Position numbers and translations under genes: made by a program. From positions 58,032,001-58,096,000 of the forward strand of contig OZ287748.1 of assembly GCA_965649765.1 (NCBI GenBank): a DNA stretch of 64,000 nt, written 5' to 3'. Position 1 is the stretch's first letter. The number at the start of each line of letters is the position of its first letter. The stretch is from Bispira polyomma. Lineage: Eukaryota. Below the pieces are notes generated by a model. It did not search any database. It was given only the letters and a program-made list of their open reading frames with translations, and was not told the DNA's origin. Below, piece by piece: positions 41,990-53,242 of the stretch.

Positions 41990-43037
41990 TGTATGTAGGG
42001 GTCCTGGGTTCCCTACTGGATATCCTGTAGTTACAAATTATCTGTGCATGGGTGAGTTCCTTCCTTGAGTTCCTTGAGTCATCCACGTTTTCAGGGCAAA
42101 GGTGTCGTCCCCCAGCAAGAAGTATTCCACGTCACGTCGAGACCCCTCAAACAGTGGTGCAGCTCTGGGCAGCCCAATGGAACCATCTTCTATCTTCTGC
42201 TTGAGCTCTGAGAGGTTAAAAATTTGGGCGTTGGAACAGGAACCACTACAGCAAATGTCCACCCAAATAAATCTGTAGTCCGCATCAACCAGGGCAAATG
42301 GGACAATGGAGTGGAAGCCTTTGTAGTTGTAAAATTCGCTCCCAGCCTTGGGAGGCTTCTTGATGGCCACGTGCTTCCCATCAATAGATCCAACAGCATG
42401 AGGGATATTCCACCTGTTCCTGTAGACTTCTTCTATTTTCAGCCAGTCTGCGGGGATGGTTGGGCAGGCTAGATTTTCTGTCTCATATTCCCTAAAGATG
42501 GCCTTGCATACTTCTGGTATAAATTTGGTGATAGATGATTTCCCCACCCTGAACTGGTAGGACAGGGACCTGTAGCTCTCCCCAGTGGCCAGGTGCCTCA
42601 AAGTTCCAGCCAGTTTCAGTCCAACATCCAAGGGCTTTCTGAACCAAGCTATTTCTTTTTTCACATGGGGTGTTATCCTATCCTTGATTTCGTCAAATAT
42701 ATCAGGTGGTAGCTTGAAAAAATTCCTGTATGAGGCTGCATCCCCTTCCTGTAGCTCCGGCACTAAGTTTGTGTAGTAGCCTAGGGCCTCTCTGTCTGAT
42801 CCAAGGCTTGACCCAGCAGATGGGTGACATACGTGGAAGTCTAATCTTCTCCGGGGGAGCCAAAGGGGCGTGTGGTGGTGTTGGGTTCAAATCTTCCTGA
42901 GCCTGAGCCTGGGCCTTGTCTTTCTCATGTTGTAATATAAGCATGAGGATACATATTTCAATCTCAAAAAAAAAAACTAAAAATGTCCCTAGTCTCCTCA
43001 AAAAATCTTCATCACTTTTTCCTGGCATTGTACTCAA
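41990..43037 (-). pseudogene. Harbinger transposase, frameshifted and 3'-deleted
   Basis: LRHLATGESY, GSIDGKH, ALVDADYRF, LLGDDTF motifs; breaks off after CNYRISS, so the VENAFG Glu motif is missing. Confidence 0.88.
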
Positions 43038-44040: not shown

Positions 44041-45504
44041 TTAGTCCATGAAACATTCTTTAATAATGTTCTTCTTACAAGACTTATATGGAAATTTGAA
44101 GAGAATATATTTATTGGATTGACACCAGTATGTGTCCTTCACTTTTAACTTATCCCACACAGGTTCATGAATACCTGGCTTTTTATCTCCAGGAGACTGG
44201 TTACCACAGGCTGCCTCAAATTGGTGGATTAGGAGAGCATTAGAAAAAGTATTGGTGGACATAGTCATAAGCACACAGTCTCCGTATGTCACTTGGAATG
44301 CCTTGCTCCATCGCGTTGCTTTGATATCCATATGCTCCTCCAAAAAACTCTTTAAAAGAAGACGTTGTTGCCCGATAGACGAATCCATAAAACTTGGTGT
44401 AAACTTTCTGCAAATACTACTGCAAAATGTTTTTATGCGCTTCAGAAGTGCCTTGAAATAAGCTACCTCGTCCCAGAATGATGGTGGTTGATTCCTTAAA
44501 ATGGTTCTGGATTTTGGAGAAAAATGCTCATAGATTACATAGTCTGCCAATGAAAATTCCCTATGTAGTCTCTTTAAATCTGCAGAGACACTTTCATTCC
44601 TTGTCGCGCTTTCTCTTTCACCACGTAGGTGTACAAGGTACAATATGTCCTTCATCTCCCAATGAAACAGTTCCTTCAAGTACACCAAACCTTCATTAAA
44701 TTGTTCGGACAAGATAACAAACTCTATTGTTTTATCCAAATAAGCAAGGTGTCGATTAATCGTCTCTATGCTATTGTTCATTGAGTCTTTGTACCCTAAA
44801 TCAAGGGCCTGTATATTTTTCACTCTGACAAAGTTGAGGTCGTGTCGAAAAGAATCGGTGTCGCTTTCCAGAAAAGCTTGTACTGGATCAGGAGAATTTT
44901 CTAAGTTGAATTTCTTGGCCAAGTCAAAATATTCAAAAGAAGACTCCAACTGGGAGAAGGGTTCACGTAAGGTTGCTATGTACTTTATGCCTGGCTGCAT
45001 GTACCTGTTAGAAACTGATTCATCAAACACCGCATGGTCACACATGATGTTGTATCTGGTAAAATTGTCACCCGCCGTAATATTTTCAATGAGGTACCTC
45101 ATTCTTGGAGTGTCTGGAAATGGTCGATAATGTTCACAGTTATACACAGCCACCTTCGAGTCATGCTTAACTGCGAACCTGTGCAGAATATTTTGCATTG
45201 TGGTGCTTCCAGTTTTATGAACTTTCATGTAATAGATATCTTTTACAGGTTGCAGTTCAGTTTCATTTATACTCTCCCCCTGAAAGTCACTGTTTAGAGA
45301 ACCATTGACAGCCCAAGCTCTATGTCTTGGGATAACCCTAGAGATTCCATTGTTTTCACTGTTGAACTCCTTTTGGTTCTTGAACTCAACAATCTCGGGC
45401 CCTGTAACCATTATATTTTGTCTTCTCAAAATCACTATTACAACAAGCCCACAGGATATTAAGATCAGAAGGAAACAATGAACAACCCTCTTGAACAATG
45501 TCAT
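44041..45504 (-). CDS. Galactose-3-O-sulfotransferase family protein (cerebroside sulfotransferase-like), Golgi type II membrane, 487 aa
   Basis: N-terminal TM; 5'-PSB motif KVHKTGSTT; 3'-PB motif LREPFSQLESSFEY; FNEGLVYLKELFHW and ADYVIYEHF motifs; uninterrupted ORF. Confidence 0.9.
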   Translation of the reverse strand: MTLFKRVVHCFLLILISCGLVVIVILRRQNIMVTGPEIVEFKNQKEFNSENNGISRVIPRHRAWAVNGSLNSDFQGESINETELQPVKDIYYMKVHKTGSTTMQNILHRFAVKHDSKVAVYNCEHYRPFPDTPRMRYLIENITAGDNFTRYNIMCDHAVFDESVSNRYMQPGIKYIATLREPFSQLESSFEYFDLAKKFNLENSPDPVQAFLESDTDSFRHDLNFVRVKNIQALDLGYKDSMNNSIETINRHLAYLDKTIEFVILSEQFNEGLVYLKELFHWEMKDILYLVHLRGERESATRNESVSADLKRLHREFSLADYVIYEHFSPKSRTILRNQPPSFWDEVAYFKALLKRIKTFCSSICRKFTPSFMDSSIGQQRLLLKSFLEEHMDIKATRWSKAFQVTYGDCVLMTMSTNTFSNALLIHQFEAACGNQSPGDKKPGIHEPVWDKLKVKDTYWCQSNKYILFKFPYKSCKKNIIKECFMD

Positions 45505-46676
45505 CCTTTCATCTATTTAAAAGCAATATTAATTCACGATTATTAACAAACAATACAGTCATCTCATATTTCAACAATACATTACTTTGTGATTTCAGTA
45601 GACTACTAAATCTCAAATACAAAGTTATTTCAATGTTTTGCATGTATTTCTATTTGCTTTCATGACAAACACAAACTGCTACATTGTCCCATGTTGTGAA
45701 AAAAATTGATTATGGACGTAAAAATACAATTATTGTGTCTATTGAATTGATTACAGACACACCCCAGTATAATGATTTGTGTGTGCATCTGCCCTGTATC
45801 CTGCATCAGTCTGTATCATTCTTAATGATTAAAACAAAAACAGCAAAATAACATTAAGTTTTTAACTGGTTAAACCAGCATTTGAGACTTGTCAAGTGAG
45901 AGGGATTGTGGTAAACACAATAAAAATCATCATATAACTATATTCCCTTTTTTTCACCAAAGATGGAAGAAGAACTGATTGGGCGGTATGGTAGGGTTTT
46001 CCAGAAGGTACTAGAAGGTATTGTAACTTGTCTTTCCGCCTCTTAAAGCAAACTTTTTTCAAATTTACAACATGACTGGGAAAACAAGAAAGCAGTATGT
46101 TTAGTAATGTACAATTCAGACTTACAACAACACAAGTTAAACTGTAACACAGTAAAAGAATTGCGGTAATATACTTATTAGTATGACTAGAGTGTTATAT
46201 CAAAAGTTTACTATATACAGTTTCAGCTTTTACAAAAGTGGGCATAAGGTAAACTTAAAGTCAAATCATTGAGGTACACGTAAGGGCACCATAAATTAGT
46301 TTAAGTTTATAAGAGAAGGGTGACATTAGGTCACTTCAAATTAAATTACAAATTTAAGGTCACCACAAGTTGGCCATAAATTAGATTGAATCGGTTCAGT
46401 ATGAGGTGACCCTAGCTTGAGTTTGAAAGAATGTTTTTAAGGGGTATGCGAGTTAAAGGGGGCCATTTGGTGGCCAAAGTTTCAGTTTAAGCATACCCAA
46501 AGGTAATCTAGCAAAATTTTAAAATGTACTCTGAATGATTACATTATGGATTGAAGTGTAAGTTGACCTTATGCCCAGGACTGTGTACTGTCCAGTTTTA
46601 TATTTTATTTCACATTAAAGTTGTATATGTTCTTCTTCCAGCTGACCAGAGGCCAGACCACCAAACCCAGAGACAC

Positions 46677-47662
46677 CTAGGAGTTGGACTGGAGGGCATT
46701 TCTGAAAGAATCAGCAACCTGGGAGCCAGCAAAAGCAGAGTCTGTAATATATCTCCACACGCAGTCCGACGTCCAGGTGCCATGACGTTGAATGTCCTGC
46801 ACATTGACGTTATTATTAAACGCAAATGTGGCACCCGAACGTCGGAACGCATGAAAAGTAAGATTCGCCTGCTGACAGCCCAGCAGCTGCAGAACATTTT
46901 TTAGATGTCACCTGACCCGAGTATCAGTAAAAGGGCCCCAAGTATTACCAACCTTGTATTGAAACAAAGGAGCATTAGAGCCAGTGGGGGATAACGCTAA
47001 TACGTTTCTAATGGCCGTCACAGGACATAAGCTGGAACGTGGGATGACTGGGATAGTTATCAATCTAATAGCATTGTTTGCCTGCAAGGTCTTTGACCAT
47101 TTGATCAGTAACATTACATAACCTGGTTTGAAAAGAACATCACCCCTGGCAAGATGTTTTGTAGGAGAAAAAGCCGCCATTGAATGGGGGCAAAGGTTGG
47201 AAAGTCTCAAAAAACTAAAAAAACTAGTAAGATAAACAGCTTTAAAAATTTGACCCATATAGGTACTGTCACATTTATCTACCAGAGCTGTGAGAAGGGG
47301 AATATCAAAGATGCTTTTAAGTTTTACCTGAAGTGGTCTATGAGTAATCAGAGCACGATTAAAGTATGAAATTCGGGGGTCTGCAAAGCAGTCCACTTTT
47401 ATATGATACAAAATACACTTGGCTTTAACTGCTGACAAGTAGTTAGCGATTTGCGTGGCCGATACTGAGTTAAAGTTCAGAAATTCTAGAAAACATAGAA
47501 GTCTAAGTACAGTCACCTGAGTGGGGGCCCAATTCATGAAGGCCCCGAAGGCAAGGAAGACTCTGAACATATTATCATAGGCCCGAGCTGTGGAAACCGC
47601 AAAAGCAGAGTGGAGCCGCTTATAGGCTCGACCCGTCAGCAGTAAATCCAGTGGGTGAGAGG
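46677..47662 (-). pseudogene. Tyrosine recombinase with one internal TGA (46908-46910)
   Basis: FLRLSN (R), WSKT (K), HAFRRSGA (HxxR), HGTW, WRY (Y). Confidence 0.88.
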
Positions 47663-47684
47663 CTATAACACAAATAGAGATACA

Positions 47685-49223
47685 TTATAGACTATTATCC
47701 AGCTGTAAGAACGTGGTATCAACATGCAACCATCTTACTGGGCCTGCCCATTGAGCCAACAACTGGTTATTATTACTAACTTTATCCCATCGTGAAAGGA
47801 GATCAGCAATTTTATTTTTGACACCCATAATGTGAATCACCCTTATCTCAATGTCAAAGCGACCAGCCCACATGTAAATGTTTCTCATATAAGAGGCCAA
47901 AGTGGGGTCCTGAGTTCTGCCAGATTCCAGTACACTGGCTACAGCCTGATTGTCGCATTTAAAAAGGACTTTTTGCCCTTGCCAGGAAGCAGACCAAATT
48001 TTTAATGCTACCAGGATATTCAGCATCTCAAGGGAGGCAATATTGTCCTCAGTCATATTTTGGGGAATTGTAAGATTGTACACCTGATCACCACAGATAC
48101 CCCCCATGCCTGTGAGGCATGCATCTAGCTCTACCTGGGCATGCACCGGCTTGTGAGAGAAAAAATTTACACCATTGAACTGTTCAACAAATACATGAAA
48201 CCATTGCAAGTCCTTGCGAAAATCCGGGGTAATTTTAAACCTATTTTTACCATAATTGTCGGGCAATAATTGCAGCATCCTGTTCAGGAATACCCGTGCG
48301 TATTTGACGCACTTGGCTATGTAAAGTAAAGAACCCAATAACGATTGCAACTCTCGTTTAGTACAGTATATTTTGTTCACCCTCATTGAGCATTTCTCTT
48401 TTATTTCATGCAATTTCTCCTCTGGTATAGAGGTAGTAAAAGTTTCTGTGTTTATGAGAATGCCCAAGCAAACGACTTTGGTACTGGGTGGAACCAGTTT
48501 CTTGGCACTGACCGTGAGACCAAGCTCACTCAGTAATTCTTGCAATCGATTATAAATAGGAGTGATTTTACTAGGCAAATTTACCACAAGAATATCGTCG
48601 ATGTAATTGTGTATATTAAATTCCTCAGCTTTCATTATGAACCTTACTGCATCCGACAAACGTTGAAAGATAGTACTGCCGTTCTGATAACCGAACAGCA
48701 AGCACTTATCAATGTAAAAGCCCTTCCAGCTCAGTCCAAGTAAATTAATATCCCCAGGGTCAATAGGTACGTGACGAAACGCGCGACTCACGTCTACCTT
48801 AAACAGTAAGCATCCTCTGCCTAGCCTTATGACGTCACTGGTTAAATTATCGATGGAGGGGTAAGACAGTAAGAATTCTGTATCTAGGTAAGAAGAGGCA
48901 GAAGCCCCTGAATTAACTGAGTGGCCAAGGGGCCAACTAAGATCCACTATTACTTGCCTATTAGCAGAACTCGATTTGTCTCTGGTCATCATTGGTGACA
49001 TGTAGAGTTCATTGATTGGTGGTTCATTAAAAGGTCCAAGAATTGCACCGAATTTACATTCGTCCTCCAAGTACGTTTCAACGTGCTCGGGGTACTCATT
49101 GGCGGAACTATGGTTACAATTTTCTGATTGGTCAATGTTTTTACGATTAACATCCAACGGAAAACCATACTTTACAAGGAGGGGTACTTGCCAATCCCAA
49201 TAGCCTTTAAGGTATTTTCCCAT
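47685..49223 (-). CDS. DIRS reverse transcriptase / RNase H (C-terminal part of a frameshifted ORF2 starting near 50263)
   Basis: FKVDVSRAFRHVP, YIDD, LDACLTGMG, LEMLNIL, CDNQAV, NKIADLLSR. Confidence 0.9.
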   Translation of the reverse strand: MGKYLKGYWDWQVPLLVKYGFPLDVNRKNIDQSENCNHSSANEYPEHVETYLEDECKFGAILGPFNEPPINELYMSPMMTRDKSSSANRQVIVDLSWPLGHSVNSGASASSYLDTEFLLSYPSIDNLTSDVIRLGRGCLLFKVDVSRAFRHVPIDPGDINLLGLSWKGFYIDKCLLFGYQNGSTIFQRLSDAVRFIMKAEEFNIHNYIDDILVVNLPSKITPIYNRLQELLSELGLTVSAKKLVPPSTKVVCLGILINTETFTTSIPEEKLHEIKEKCSMRVNKIYCTKRELQSLLGSLLYIAKCVKYARVFLNRMLQLLPDNYGKNRFKITPDFRKDLQWFHVFVEQFNGVNFFSHKPVHAQVELDACLTGMGGICGDQVYNLTIPQNMTEDNIASLEMLNILVALKIWSASWQGQKVLFKCDNQAVASVLESGRTQDPTLASYMRNIYMWAGRFDIEIRVIHIMGVKNKIADLLSRWDKVSNNNQLLAQWAGPVRWLHVDTTFLQLDNSL

Positions 49224-50233
49224 TGGTCTAATTGAGATTTTACAGCCAATTGCAATCCCTTAAAATTGTGCCTGCCATCATGTCGTAATTTATTGTGCAT
49301 TTGGAAAATGCTAAGCCCGTGATTTGTATTGCCATTGTCCACTATTTTTTTCCCTAGGGTAGTAAGGGGAGTGAATCCGTACTCAACATTACTCTGTGAG
49401 CACCATGCATTATATGTACTATCACATCTGGCTTTAGCCAACAATTCCCGTTTATTTTTCTTTTGTTTTAATTCAAGTGAATATTTGTCACTGCACTCCA
49501 TGGTCTCTTTAGAATCATGTATGGGTGAAGTACATTGCATTACCTGATGTGAGTTATTGTCACTGCCCTCAATAGTGTCAAGATTTTTGTTAGACACGGC
49601 TATGGGATTTGAATTTTTTTACATAAGTGTTTGCTCGACTGGTCCCCACAAAATCAAGCTTAGTGTTGTTTGCTTTTAATATGGTCTTGGCGGCCCACTC
49701 TCCCTCACCATTGTTGTCACCAAGTACAACAGTGGTTTGGCTAAGTGGCAGAAATCTATTTTGTAGCAACACGCCATTGTTCTGGTTGACACTTTTAAAT
49801 ACCTTGACTGGGTGGGGGCTTGTTCCCCTCATCTTACCCACTTTCCTTTGTTTCAAATCACAATGTGATTTTTGCGCGACAGAAACAAAGGAGGGGGTAT
49901 TTCTATTGAGGAACTTCACACCTCCATCCCGAATGGCCTGTGGCCTTTCTGTGTTAATTTTGGAAACACACATCTGTTCACCTGACATTTTAATATTATT
50001 CTTGAAATTTGTACACATTTTGACACCTTTGGGACTCTTGGTGTGAATTCTCATTCTGTTAGTGCACAAATTTACACTATCACACTTTCTATGTACACTT
50101 TGAACAGCCTTGCTGTAAGAACAGCGAGTCTATTTACCTCTGTTATATACAAGCATTTTTGTCTCACCGATTTGTTAAACAAATGAGGTTCCTGAAAATT
50201 TGAATTGTAAAATTCCCTAGTCAAAACAACATT

Positions 50234-50269
50234 ACCCACTGCATTGCTGCAGTGGGCACTCAGTTTTTT
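50234..50269 (-). promoter_or_regulatory. Putative -1 programmed ribosomal frameshift signal at the gag/pol junction
   Basis: A AAA AAC heptamer directly before the gag TGA; 5-nt spacer; GCCCACTGCA-GCAA-TGCAGTGGGT stem-loop. Confidence 0.65.
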
Positions 50270-51292
50270 GTCCCTTTTTTGTTACAAGTGCTGGTTTTGT
50301 GTGTGCCCCCACACGACTCGCATACATGCTTAAAATATGTGTTGCCCGTTTTGTGGCTGTTTGGAAATCTACACGAGCCATCCTGGAAAAATCTACAATT
50401 TGCTGTACCCTGCTTATTAGCCGAGGTACTATTTCTAGTACCAGCCCAACCAAAGTTACTCTGAATTGAATTAGAGTTCGACACGTGATGTTGGGCGTGG
50501 GCTCTTCGGAGCCTGTCAAGTTTGTCCACGTCTGACCAAGATAGCTTGTCTATTTCCATATGGGTTAGGACTACCGCATGGCACGCTTTTGCGGCTTCCC
50601 ATGAAAAATCCTCCGAATCTTCCATTAGGTTTGCCATGTATTCAAGCATGGTTTCCCTTATGGACTCTGACTTCTCATCTTGCACAATTCTCAAGAAACC
50701 ACAAACCCATTGACTCATCGACAAGTCATCATATGTAGGCCTGGAACGAACGCTGCCTGTGAGGACATGGTTCTGGGGCCATTCAACTATACATTTTACA
50801 ACAACATCAACACCCCCCCCCCCCTTTGAGATTTCAATTTACCTTGGGTGGGGCCTTCATTCAACCGTTTTAGATCTGCCAAACGCAACTCGACCTGTGT
50901 CTGAATCTGTGCATTAGTTTTCAAGAAATCTACAGTAGGCATTATATTTTCCAATACACTCTCAGAAGCTACAGTATTAGTAACTGTCGGAACATTACTG
51001 GTGACAGAGGTACTAGCCTGATTTTGAACTCGTTCTCCCGCCAACGCTGCCTCCGTGAGTTGGACACGCTGATCCATTCTTTCCATCATATTGCTCATGG
51101 ACTGTAGTTGAAGCAAAATCTGACTACTAATTTGATTCACACTACCTTCCAGAGCTGTGGTCTCAGACGTGTCCTCCTCATCGGCGACAGCCTTGACAGA
51201 AGCCTGTGAAACGTCCCAGAGTACAAACAACCCGCACCCACCGGACGGGCATGTTTTCCCAAGCATTTCGAGCAATTAACAATTGGAGGCAT
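50260..51292 (-). pseudogene. DIRS gag-like ORF1 with two frameshifts (one at a 12-C run, 50813-50824)
   Basis: N-terminal MPPIVNCSKCLGKHARPVGAGC; C-terminal CRFFQDGSC..H..HVCESCGGTHKTSTC zinc fingers. Confidence 0.75.
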
Positions 51293-52629
51293 TGTAAAAC
51301 GTAAAAGTTACAAATAAAAATATAAAACAGACTAAAAACTTTTTCACCATCTGTTATAAAATACTAGTTGCTTCGTTGGTGTTATTGTGTAAAAAAAAAA
51401 AACTTGATATGAGTTTAAACGTTGCGCACAAAGTATTACACATCCAATATAATTTTTTTTATTCTTTCAAAAACTAATATTTGATAGGAATATCATTACA
51501 TCGTAAGGGCATATATTTATAAGATTATTTATATAGTTAATGTTTGGAACACAGTAGGTAAATAGGAAAAGATCGCGGTAAAATATTTATTAATTAAAAT
51601 ATTGAGTTCTAGACTGCTAAGATTTATAAGTTAAGATATGGAATATCTAGGGCATAAGGTCACCTTAAGTTAAGTGAATATTGAAATTCAAGTTTAAGTA
51701 AATTTTGAGTTAAATTTAGAGTTTGAGTCTAAACTTAAAGATCAAGTTCAGTTTAGGTTAAAGAATTTCAATTTTGACTTTAGGGTTTAAGTCTAAACTT
51801 GAAATGAAACAGTACATTATGCACTTATGTACTGCAAGGGGATCTTATAAGTCCAATTTTTAATATAATACTGTTGATAAATTTTATGTTGTATAAGTTC
51901 AGCTGACCATTGAATTTGGTCCACCAATTCAGACCACCAGGGGAGTAGCTTGGATTTTTCATTTGCTACTCTACAATTTATCCCAATGTCATGATATTAG
52001 GTTTGTCATGATATTAGGTTTCTTATTGCTACCATAAATTTGATTCGGCGCTCACTCTGTCATTAATTATTTTTTCGTTCTGTTTGCTTTAGTGCTACTA
52101 CCATAAATTCATGTGGGGGAAGGGGAAGGGGGATCAATTGGTTATTACAGTTTATGTTTTTGTCATTAAATTGGTACATCTGGGCTTACCTGCTTCTACA
52201 CTAGCTACACCCTTTGACCACCAACAAGTACCACACTCTATACAGTCTTTTGACTGCACACTGTACTATTTTGAGCTTGGTTGTTTCTATTCAAACATAT
52301 TTAAGCCAATATTCAGCATTTTGTGTGCGCATGTCTAAAAGGAAAAAGAGCACGTTTTGATGGATAACAGAAACAAGTGTCCAAATCTTGCAAAATATCG
52401 GCAGTTTCCTTCCACTGTCAAAATTCATTAAATCGATTAATATCAAGCATTAATATAGGCATTCTTTGTCTATACAGAAAGGATTAACTGGATGTTCCTA
52501 ATTATAAGTTCATTTTAACAATAATTGTACGTTGTAATGGGTAATTTAACAAAATGTGGCTACATGATCCGTTTTAGTGGTATATTGTGTATCCTGAACT
52601 AAAGCACGCACACAATAATTTATACAAAG

Positions 52630-53040
52630 TGGCTGGAGTACTGCTAAATACTGTACTCTAATAAAAAGGATGGGGTATGGTTAAATACTGTACTTTAATA
52701 GAAAGGCTGTGGTATTATTAAATACCGTAATTTAATAGAAAGGCTTTGGTATAGTTAAATATCGTACTTTAATAGAAAGGCTGTAGTACGGTTAAATATT
52801 GTACATTAATAGAAAAGCTGGGGTACGTTTAAATACTGTACTTTTAAATACTGTACTTTAATAAAAAAAAAAAAAAGGGCTGGGGTACGGTTAAAAACTG
52901 TTAGTTAATAGTAAGGCTGGGATATGGTTAAATACTGTACTCTAATCAAAAGGATGGGGTATGGCTGAATATTGTACTTTAAAAGAGAGGCTGGGGTAAG
53001 GTTAAATACTGTACTTTCAGAGAAAGGCTAGGGTACGGTT
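52630..53040 (+). repeat. About 37-bp minisatellite, about 11 copies
   Basis: GGCTGGGGTACGGTTAAATACTGTACTTTAATAGAAA consensus. Confidence 0.9.
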
Positions 53041-53242
53041 ATTCAAATTTCTACCACATTAGAACAAAAATGTTACAGTGCAGTAGACAGAAAAAAAAAG
53101 GTTTAAGTTCACTTTAACAGATGAAATTAATTGTTAAATCTGCGCACCTTGTTGTAATTACGTTTGTCTGACCTATGACTCGGCAAGAATCGTCATCGAT
53201 GTGTTGCATTTTATAAAAGAATCATATGCAATATTATATTAC

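What the first reader, a model, noticed from the sequence alone, without database searches (positions are those of the whole stretch)
50072..50269. Canonical-looking -1 ribosomal frameshift cassette in a tyrosine-recombinase retrotransposon
Seen (minus strand): ..ACA AAA AAC TGA GT GCCCACTGCA GCAA TGCAGTGGGT. This is an X XXY YYZ slippery heptamer in the gag frame, followed by the gag stop, a 5-nt spacer and a 9-bp perfect stem (plus G-U) closed by a GNRA loop. The -1 frame stays open for 63 codons with no ATG; the other two frames stop quickly. Established: this is the architecture of retroviral gag-pol frameshift signals. Inference: this DIRS-order element makes Gag-Pol by -1 frameshifting; together with the YR acceptor, this suggests a retrovirus-like expression programme. 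Caveat: three later frame breaks in this copy interrupt the path to RT.
Basis: partly seen in the sequence, partly recalled or inferred. Interest (0 to 1): 0.7.

Follow-up and report, generated by a model that had tools for sequence, protein, structure and literature searches.

The report
Conserved frameshift signal in Ngaro retrotransposons
A large family of jumping genes in this animal genome keeps a slippery sequence and a hairpin at the end of its first gene across very distant relatives, so it likely makes its reverse transcriptase by a one-base backward ribosome slip as retroviruses do, though this is not yet tested at the bench.

Summary
The element is an Ngaro-type tyrosine-recombinase retrotransposon. 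A AAA AAC ends gag in 86 of 93 copies from all 14 subfamilies, and a 7-bp stem starts 7 nt later. From the junction, the -1 frame runs unbroken into the RT motif in 18 of 93 close and 11 of 20 distant natural copies; the 0 and +1 frames never do. Clades with 33-55% RT identity keep pol in -1 and an AAAAC-ending site with a stem 6-9 nt behind it, although the stop codon moves and the stem differs. Two corrections: the GNRA loop is not conserved (4 of 14), and 'no ATG' comes from this copy's own break, since most sisters have a Met 36-41 codons in. That Met is absent or moved in other lineages. Best reading: -1 frameshifting to Gag-Pol (0.88), untested, no RNA data. The mechanism is textbook. 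I found no such signal described for DIRS-order elements, but the key Ngaro papers were not readable. The scan had not noted this cassette before; it had noted the recombinase splice in this genome several times.

The parts
46135..51394 (-). Decayed Ngaro-type retrotransposon copy, clipped at both ends relative to sister copies
50260..51292 (-). gag-like ORF1 (about 345 aa in open sisters; C-terminal Cys/His fingers); broken in this copy near 51216 and 50824
50263..50269 (-). Slippery heptamer A AAA AAC in the gag frame
50260..50262 (-). gag stop codon, inside the spacer
50234..50257 (-). Stem-loop; conserved 7-bp core 50255-50249 paired with 50242-50236, starting 7 nt after the heptamer
50160..50263 (-). 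Start of the -1 (pol) frame up to this copy's first break; coding constraint in the -1 frame across subfamilies
47685..50263 (-). pol: about 300-codon N-terminal region, RT (YIDD at 48605-48594) and RNase H; no methyltransferase; breaks near 50160, 49620, 49218
50835..50848 (-). Predicted phase-1 splice donor in mid-gag (first intron base 50842)
47657..47684 (-). Predicted phase-1 splice acceptor in front of the recombinase (last intron base 47663)
46677..47662 (-). Tyrosine recombinase ORF (HxxR at 46853-46842); in-frame stop at 46910-46908 in this copy

Best explanation
This is the conserved gag-pol junction of an Ngaro-type retrotransposon family, and it likely works as a programmed -1 ribosomal frameshift signal that yields a Gag-Pol fusion. 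Shown: the heptamer, stop and stem; their conservation; pol in the -1 frame. Inferred: most ribosomes stop at the gag stop and make Gag (about 345 aa); a minority pause at the stem 7 nt downstream, tRNA-Lys and tRNA-Asn slip back one base on A AAA AAC, and translation runs on through about 810-865 codons of pol (N-terminal region, RT, RNase H), giving about 1,150-1,200 aa. No protease domain was found, so the fusion would stay uncut unless a host protease acts. The recombinase is predicted to come from a spliced Gag(N)-YR mRNA. The window's copy is dead; the claim is about the family.
For: Frame: from the junction the RT YxDD motif is reached without a stop in the -1 frame in 18 of 93 copies, never in 0 or +1; median open length 151 vs 31 and 10 codons; 11 of 20 distant loci likewise, none in other frames. 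Heptamer: 86 of 93 copies, present in all 14 subfamilies at 55-76% gag nucleotide identity. The residue before Lys-Asn varies (T, L, A, S, V) but its third base stays A; AAA and AAC are each the majority codon in 14 of 14 subfamilies, while control Lys (KSQR) is AAA in 10 of 14 and control Asn (WPQN) is AAC in 3 of 13. Stem: both 7-nt arms exact and in place in 73 of 93 copies; among the 2.5% most stable 36-nt windows of the element in 13 of 14 representatives. Genome-wide 591 exact matches to heptamer-stop-stem and 369 to a second clade's form, 0 for both reversed controls. In the second clade (RT 48-55% identical) the stop moves one codon later, the stem still starts 7 nt after the heptamer, and its first pair is G-C instead of C-G: spacing is tied to the slip site, not the stop, and lies in the 5-8 nt range given in PMC3458567. 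Segment between stem and first Met: pN/pS 0.65 in -1 vs 1.14 and 1.44 in the other frames over 11 subfamilies, third positions most variable, length differences in whole codons. Other genomes: 35 of 67 homologous Gags with a terminal finger end in KN or KN plus 1-2 residues, and two proteins end in the off-frame reading of the same cassette. A_AAA_AAC is among the most shift-prone eukaryotic heptamers (PMC5009743).
Against: No RNA, ribosome-profiling, peptide or reporter data. The core stem hardly varies, so covariation is weak: 2 of 10 pairs change on both sides, 92 of 500 shuffles do as well; covariation score 33 of 500. Many subfamilies have an 8-bp stem of only about -13 kcal/mol. A Met 36-41 codons downstream is kept in 10 of 11 scored subfamilies, and where it is Thr the codon is ACG, a near-cognate start. 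The most distant clade has G GAA AAC, not a canonical X XXY YYZ. The third clade's structure is not significant by folding (z 0.3 to -0.6). 32 of 67 homologous Gags do not end in KN-like tails. The stop count in the -1 frame is zero by selection of open copies. Copies are related, so copy counts are not independent events.
Confidence: 0.88

Rival explanations
1. Pol is made on its own, by reinitiation or internal initiation at the Met 36-41 codons after the gag stop; heptamer and hairpin are incidental or serve another role.
For: The Met is in the -1 frame and kept in 10 of 11 scored subfamilies of the window's clade and in 18 of 23 copies of the window's subfamily.
Against: It is absent in 3 of 3 open copies of one subfamily and is ACG in 5 of 9 copies of a young subfamily, 4 of which have an 807-codon open pol with first Met at 219. 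In distant clades the first Met of the 11 RT-reaching frames lies at 10-164. The codons upstream of the Met are under coding constraint in the -1 frame. It does not explain silent-site conservation of the heptamer.
Confidence: 0.05
3. The fusion arises by polymerase slippage on the A-run, or the palindrome has a DNA or packaging role and only the heptamer matters for recoding.
For: The core palindrome is invariant rather than covarying, as a sequence-specific site would be. The site contains an A6 run.
Against: The run is only six A long in 83 of 93 copies and seven or more in 4; the C of AAC is kept; the stem lies 3' of the site at ribosome spacing and keeps that spacing in clades with other stem sequences. 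That six A is short for polymerase slippage is recalled knowledge.
Confidence: 0.03

Closest known systems
Ngaro retrotransposons (order DIRS), as described in PMC8547959 (section 11 and passages), PMC9210276, PMC4157794, PMC3783388 (passages)
   Same: gag, RT/RNase H, YR order; no methyltransferase; A1-ORFs-B1-A2-B2 split direct repeats in young sister subfamilies.
   Different: The window's subfamily lacks A2/B2. The passages read give no gag-pol frameshift signal. Poulter and Butler 2015, seen only as a quotation in PMC13003380, propose -1 frameshifting at the RT/RH-YR overlap; here that junction has no fixed frame and looks spliced, while the gag-pol junction carries the signal.
-1 frameshift signals of retroviruses and animal LTR retrotransposons (PMC3458567, PMC5009743 passages)
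   Same: X_XXY_YYZ heptamer, 5-8 nt spacer, 3' stem; pol in -1 (28 of 51 animal retroelements in the survey cited in PMC5009743).
   Different: The host is a tyrosine-recombinase element with no protease or DDE integrase; the overlap is only 5-8 codons with the gag stop inside the spacer; the stem core is nearly invariant in sequence.
Astrovirus ORF1a/1b frameshift signal (PMC2829535 passages)
   Same: Same heptamer AAAAAAC followed by a simple stem-loop.
   Different: RNA virus replicase, unrelated host and stem sequence; a functional analogy only.

Membership tests
Ngaro retrotransposon | RT and RNase H ORF after a gag-like ORF1 | tested here: met
   Pfam RVT_1 and RVT_3 in the window and in 4 of 4 open sister ORFs
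Ngaro retrotransposon | Tyrosine recombinase ORF downstream on the same strand | tested here: met
   PHROG integrase families, E 1.4e-9, for a sister YR; HxxR motif in the window; Pfam and PDB sequence searches gave no hit
Ngaro retrotransposon | No methyltransferase after RNase H | tested here: met
   pol ends 306 aa after YxDD, no Pfam MT hit, no DPPY-type motif in 4 of 4 ORFs
Ngaro retrotransposon | Split direct repeats A1...B1-A2-B2 | tested here: inconclusive
   Both repeat pairs in 4 and the A pair alone in 4 of 14 sister-subfamily loci examined; absent in 3 of 3 copies of the window's own subfamily. Both pairs also in distant clades. Met for the family, not for this subfamily.
Ngaro retrotransposon | RT phylogeny with reference Ngaro elements | not testable with these tools
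   No named reference sequences available; the tree holds only this genome's copies
-1 programmed ribosomal frameshift signal | X_XXY_YYZ heptamer in the zero frame | tested here: met
   86 of 93 copies, all 14 subfamilies; 40 of 56 distant gag ends; most distant clade non-canonical
-1 programmed ribosomal frameshift signal | Stable 3' structure 5-8 nt downstream | tested here: met
   Predicted stem at 7 nt; covariation support weak
-1 programmed ribosomal frameshift signal | Downstream ORF in the -1 frame without a conserved start of its own | tested here: met
-1 programmed ribosomal frameshift signal | Measured frameshifting that depends on heptamer and structure | not testable with these tools
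   Needs a reporter assay or ribosome profiling

The most novel reading that the evidence does not exclude
Ngaro elements run a full retrovirus-like programme from one RNA (Gag, frameshifted Gag-Pol, spliced Gag-YR) without a protease, and the frameshift is regulated: the six base pairs CACTGC/GCAGTG are identical in two clades whose RTs are only about 50% identical, which suggests a protein, perhaps Gag's own Cys/His fingers, reads the hairpin by sequence and tunes the Gag to Gag-Pol ratio.
Probability: 0.13. Interest if true: 0.8.

Novelty: new member of a known kind. Interest (0 to 1): 0.55.

Why it matters
How DIRS-order retrotransposons express their start-less enzyme ORFs has been guessed rather than shown. 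This gives an exact, short, testable cis-signal for Ngaro pol, conserved over four deep clades and probably in other genomes. It also moves the frameshift proposed in print from the RT-YR junction to the gag-pol junction. It would extend gag-pol -1 frameshifting to another retrotransposon order, supply natural stimulator variants behind one slip site, and correct annotation of these ORFs. The mechanism itself is well known.

Tried and rejected
RNA evidence: no RNA holder listed; the three runs of unknown kind laid as contigs showed no GT..AG joint among the 15 of 55 joints displayed and cannot speak to expression. Exact cassette pattern in metagenome contigs: 0 matches. Stop-codon readthrough rejected: pol is never in frame 0. 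A pol splice acceptor 71 nt after the stop rejected as not conserved. GNRA loop rejected as a family feature. C CCA AAA as the slip site of the most distant clade: absent in 3 of 9 copies and inside the stem region, so I prefer G GAA AAC, with doubt. Pfam names no domain in Gag, in the pol N-terminal region or in YR; window 46613-46900, scanned, is not the YR frame and those rows mean nothing. One search failed on a frame slip and was rerun. Rows dropped: 8 of 101 loci lacked a usable junction (L118, L119, L120, L126, L128, L129, L180, L184) before the counts on 93; 3 of 14 subfamilies had no usable copy; 4 of 60 loci had no gag end, and the two searches behind it overlap (L199 and L248 are one copy). 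Literature: ten searches found no paper describing a gag-pol slippery site in a DIRS-order element; Goodwin and Poulter 2004 and Poulter and Butler 2015 are not held and may contain it. No supplements were read.

Full report
Observation. On the minus strand gag ends ACA AAA AAC TGA, followed by GT and a hairpin. The heptamer is at 50269-50263 and the stop at 50262-50260. The 38 nt after the heptamer fold at -20.0 kcal/mol, z -4.6, with 0 of 200 shuffles as stable. The window holds 983 X XXY YYZ sites on its two strands and this is the only one followed by a hairpin of -15 kcal/mol or better. The -1 frame is open for 63 codons and +1 for 9.

The element. It spans about 51394-46135 and is clipped at both ends against sister copies. 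Order: gag-like ORF with terminal Cys/His fingers, pol with RT and RNase H, then a tyrosine recombinase (PHROG integrase match for a sister copy). Pol ends 306 aa after YxDD with no methyltransferase. Young sister subfamilies carry A1...B1-A2-B2 split direct repeats; the window's subfamily lacks the A2/B2 part. This fits Ngaro as defined in PMC8547959, PMC9210276 and PMC4157794 (passages); placement on a tree with named references could not be tested. This copy is dead: breaks in gag near 51216 and 50824, in pol near 50160, 49620 and 49218, and a stop in YR at 46910-46908.

Frame test on natural copies. I examined 101 loci (100 fetched, plus the window); 93 have a usable junction and fall into 14 subfamilies at 55-76% gag nucleotide identity. 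From the junction the RT motif is reached without a stop in the -1 frame in 18 of 93 and in the 0 or +1 frame in none; 74, 7 and 2 of 93 are open for 60 codons or more in -1, 0 and +1. Fourteen copies have -1 frames of 804-865 codons.

The heptamer is conserved beyond protein need. It is exact in 86 of 93 copies and present in all 14 subfamilies. The residue before Lys-Asn is T, L, A, S or V, yet the codon ends in A in 13 of 14 subfamily majorities (the other is a 1:1 tie). AAA and AAC are the majority in 14 of 14, against 10 of 14 for a control Lys and 3 of 13 for a control Asn.

The stem. A 7-bp core starts 7 nt after the heptamer; both arms are exact and in place in 73 of 93 copies. The loop varies and is GNRA in 4 of 14 representatives. 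Formal covariation is weak: 90% of cells pair, 2 of 10 pairs change on both sides, and shuffles reach this in 92 of 500. The pattern has 591 exact matches in the genome against 0 for the reversed control.

Distant clades. Searching the genome with two distant Gag proteins gave 60 loci; 56 had a gag end and 40 had A AAA AAC in frame. RT identity between clades is 33-55%. Clade B has heptamer, one more codon, stop, and a stem again 7 nt after the heptamer whose first pair is G-C instead of C-G; 369 exact matches, control 0. Clade C has the same heptamer followed by an unrelated sequence with two crossing complementarities, read by eye as a possible pseudoknot starting 8-9 nt downstream; folding gives it no significant support. 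Clade D has G GAA AAC ten codons before the stop in 8 of 11 loci and a long predicted stem starting 6-7 nt later (z -1.8 to -4.4); this site is non-canonical and my placement is inference. Among 20 longer loci from clades B-D, 11 reach the RT motif in the -1 frame and none in another.

The ATG. Most subfamilies of its clade have a Met at codon 36-41. It is not a convincing start. It is missing in one subfamily, is ACG in 5 of 9 copies of a young one (first Met at 219 in four 807-codon frames), and the first Met of distant clades lies at 10-164. The segment upstream of it evolves as protein in the -1 frame: pN/pS 0.65 against 1.14 and 1.44, codon-position identity 0.53, 0.61, 0.36, over 11 subfamilies; pairwise values match the rest of the pol N-terminal region. 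No acceptor is conserved in the 140 nt after the stop.

Other genomes. Of 164 homologous proteins, 67 have the terminal finger and a short tail; 19 end in KN, 16 in KN plus one or two residues, 32 otherwise.

The recombinase. Its frame relative to pol is not fixed (0, +1, -1 in 25, 20, 16 of 61 scored copies, some rows misplaced by decay), but a T-rich YAG sits in phase 1 at the same place before the conserved YR N-terminus in the subfamilies shown, and a mid-gag Gly codon is GGT in 87 of 90 copies (background 0.38), forming a phase-1 donor. This predicts a spliced Gag(N)-YR product. The scan noted this earlier in this genome; no RNA confirms it here.

Mechanism. Shown: signal, conservation, frame. 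Inferred: tandem tRNA slippage on A AAA AAC when the ribosome meets the stem, giving a minor Gag-Pol of about 1,150-1,200 aa beside Gag. PMC3458567 gives the consensus and the 5-8 nt spacing, PMC5009743 lists A_AAA_AAC among the most shift-prone sites, and astroviruses use the same heptamer with a stem-loop (PMC2829535). Confidence 0.88.

What is known. -1 gag-pol frameshifting is common in animal LTR retrotransposons (PMC5009743; the held first 300,000 characters contain no 'DIRS' or 'Ngaro'). For Ngaro, PMC13003380 quotes Poulter and Butler 2015 proposing frameshifting at the RT/RH-YR overlap. That review and Goodwin and Poulter 2004 are not held, so a prior mention of a gag-pol frameshift cannot be excluded; I think it quite possible that they noted the -1 overlap. 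Ten searches found no description of the signal. Of the twelve papers opened I read passages only, plus section 11 of PMC8547959; no supplements. Earlier scan notes hold no frameshift finding in this genome and one passing inference for a fungal Ngaro.

Verdict. Real, well supported by comparison, mechanistically ordinary, apparently undescribed as a signal in this order: new member of a known kind, interest 0.55.

Noticed in passing
window 50842 and 47663 (minus strand): Conserved phase-1 donor in mid-gag and acceptor before YR predict a spliced Gag(N)-YR fusion that skips pol; already noted by the scan in this genome.
   Followed up: partly
L031-L049 termini; window copy clipped at 51394 and 46135: The window's subfamily has no A2/B2 repeats; its ends carry short hairpins and a short 5'-3' complementarity, while sister subfamilies have full split direct repeats.
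   Followed up: partly
L251-L253 (also L191-L194, L207), 8-62 nt after the heptamer: Clade C has two crossing complementarities after the heptamer that could form an H-type pseudoknot; not supported by folding statistics, short last loop.
   Followed up: partly
L260-L266, gag end: Clade D (RT 33-41% identical to the others) has G GAA AAC and a long multi-segment stem enclosing the gag stop; possible non-canonical slip site.
   Followed up: partly
pol codons about 10-60 and 280-340 in L031, L098, L110, L171: The pol N-terminal region has two conserved blocks (Y.S.F...LF.K....KM..Y and DKY.L.LKQK...YGF.PL) around a variable linker; no Pfam match, no protease.
   Followed up: no
window 44041-45516 (minus): Single-ORF galactose-3-O-sulfotransferase gene (PF06990, E 7.5e-41) just downstream of the element.
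   Followed up: no
window 42038-42886 (minus): DDE_Tnp_4 (Harbinger-type) transposase fragment.
   Followed up: no
window 52589-53078: Tandem array with a 37-bp period.
   Followed up: no
L044:1-454: A second copy of the element's 5' end lies inverted about 3.3 kb upstream of a full copy.
   Followed up: no
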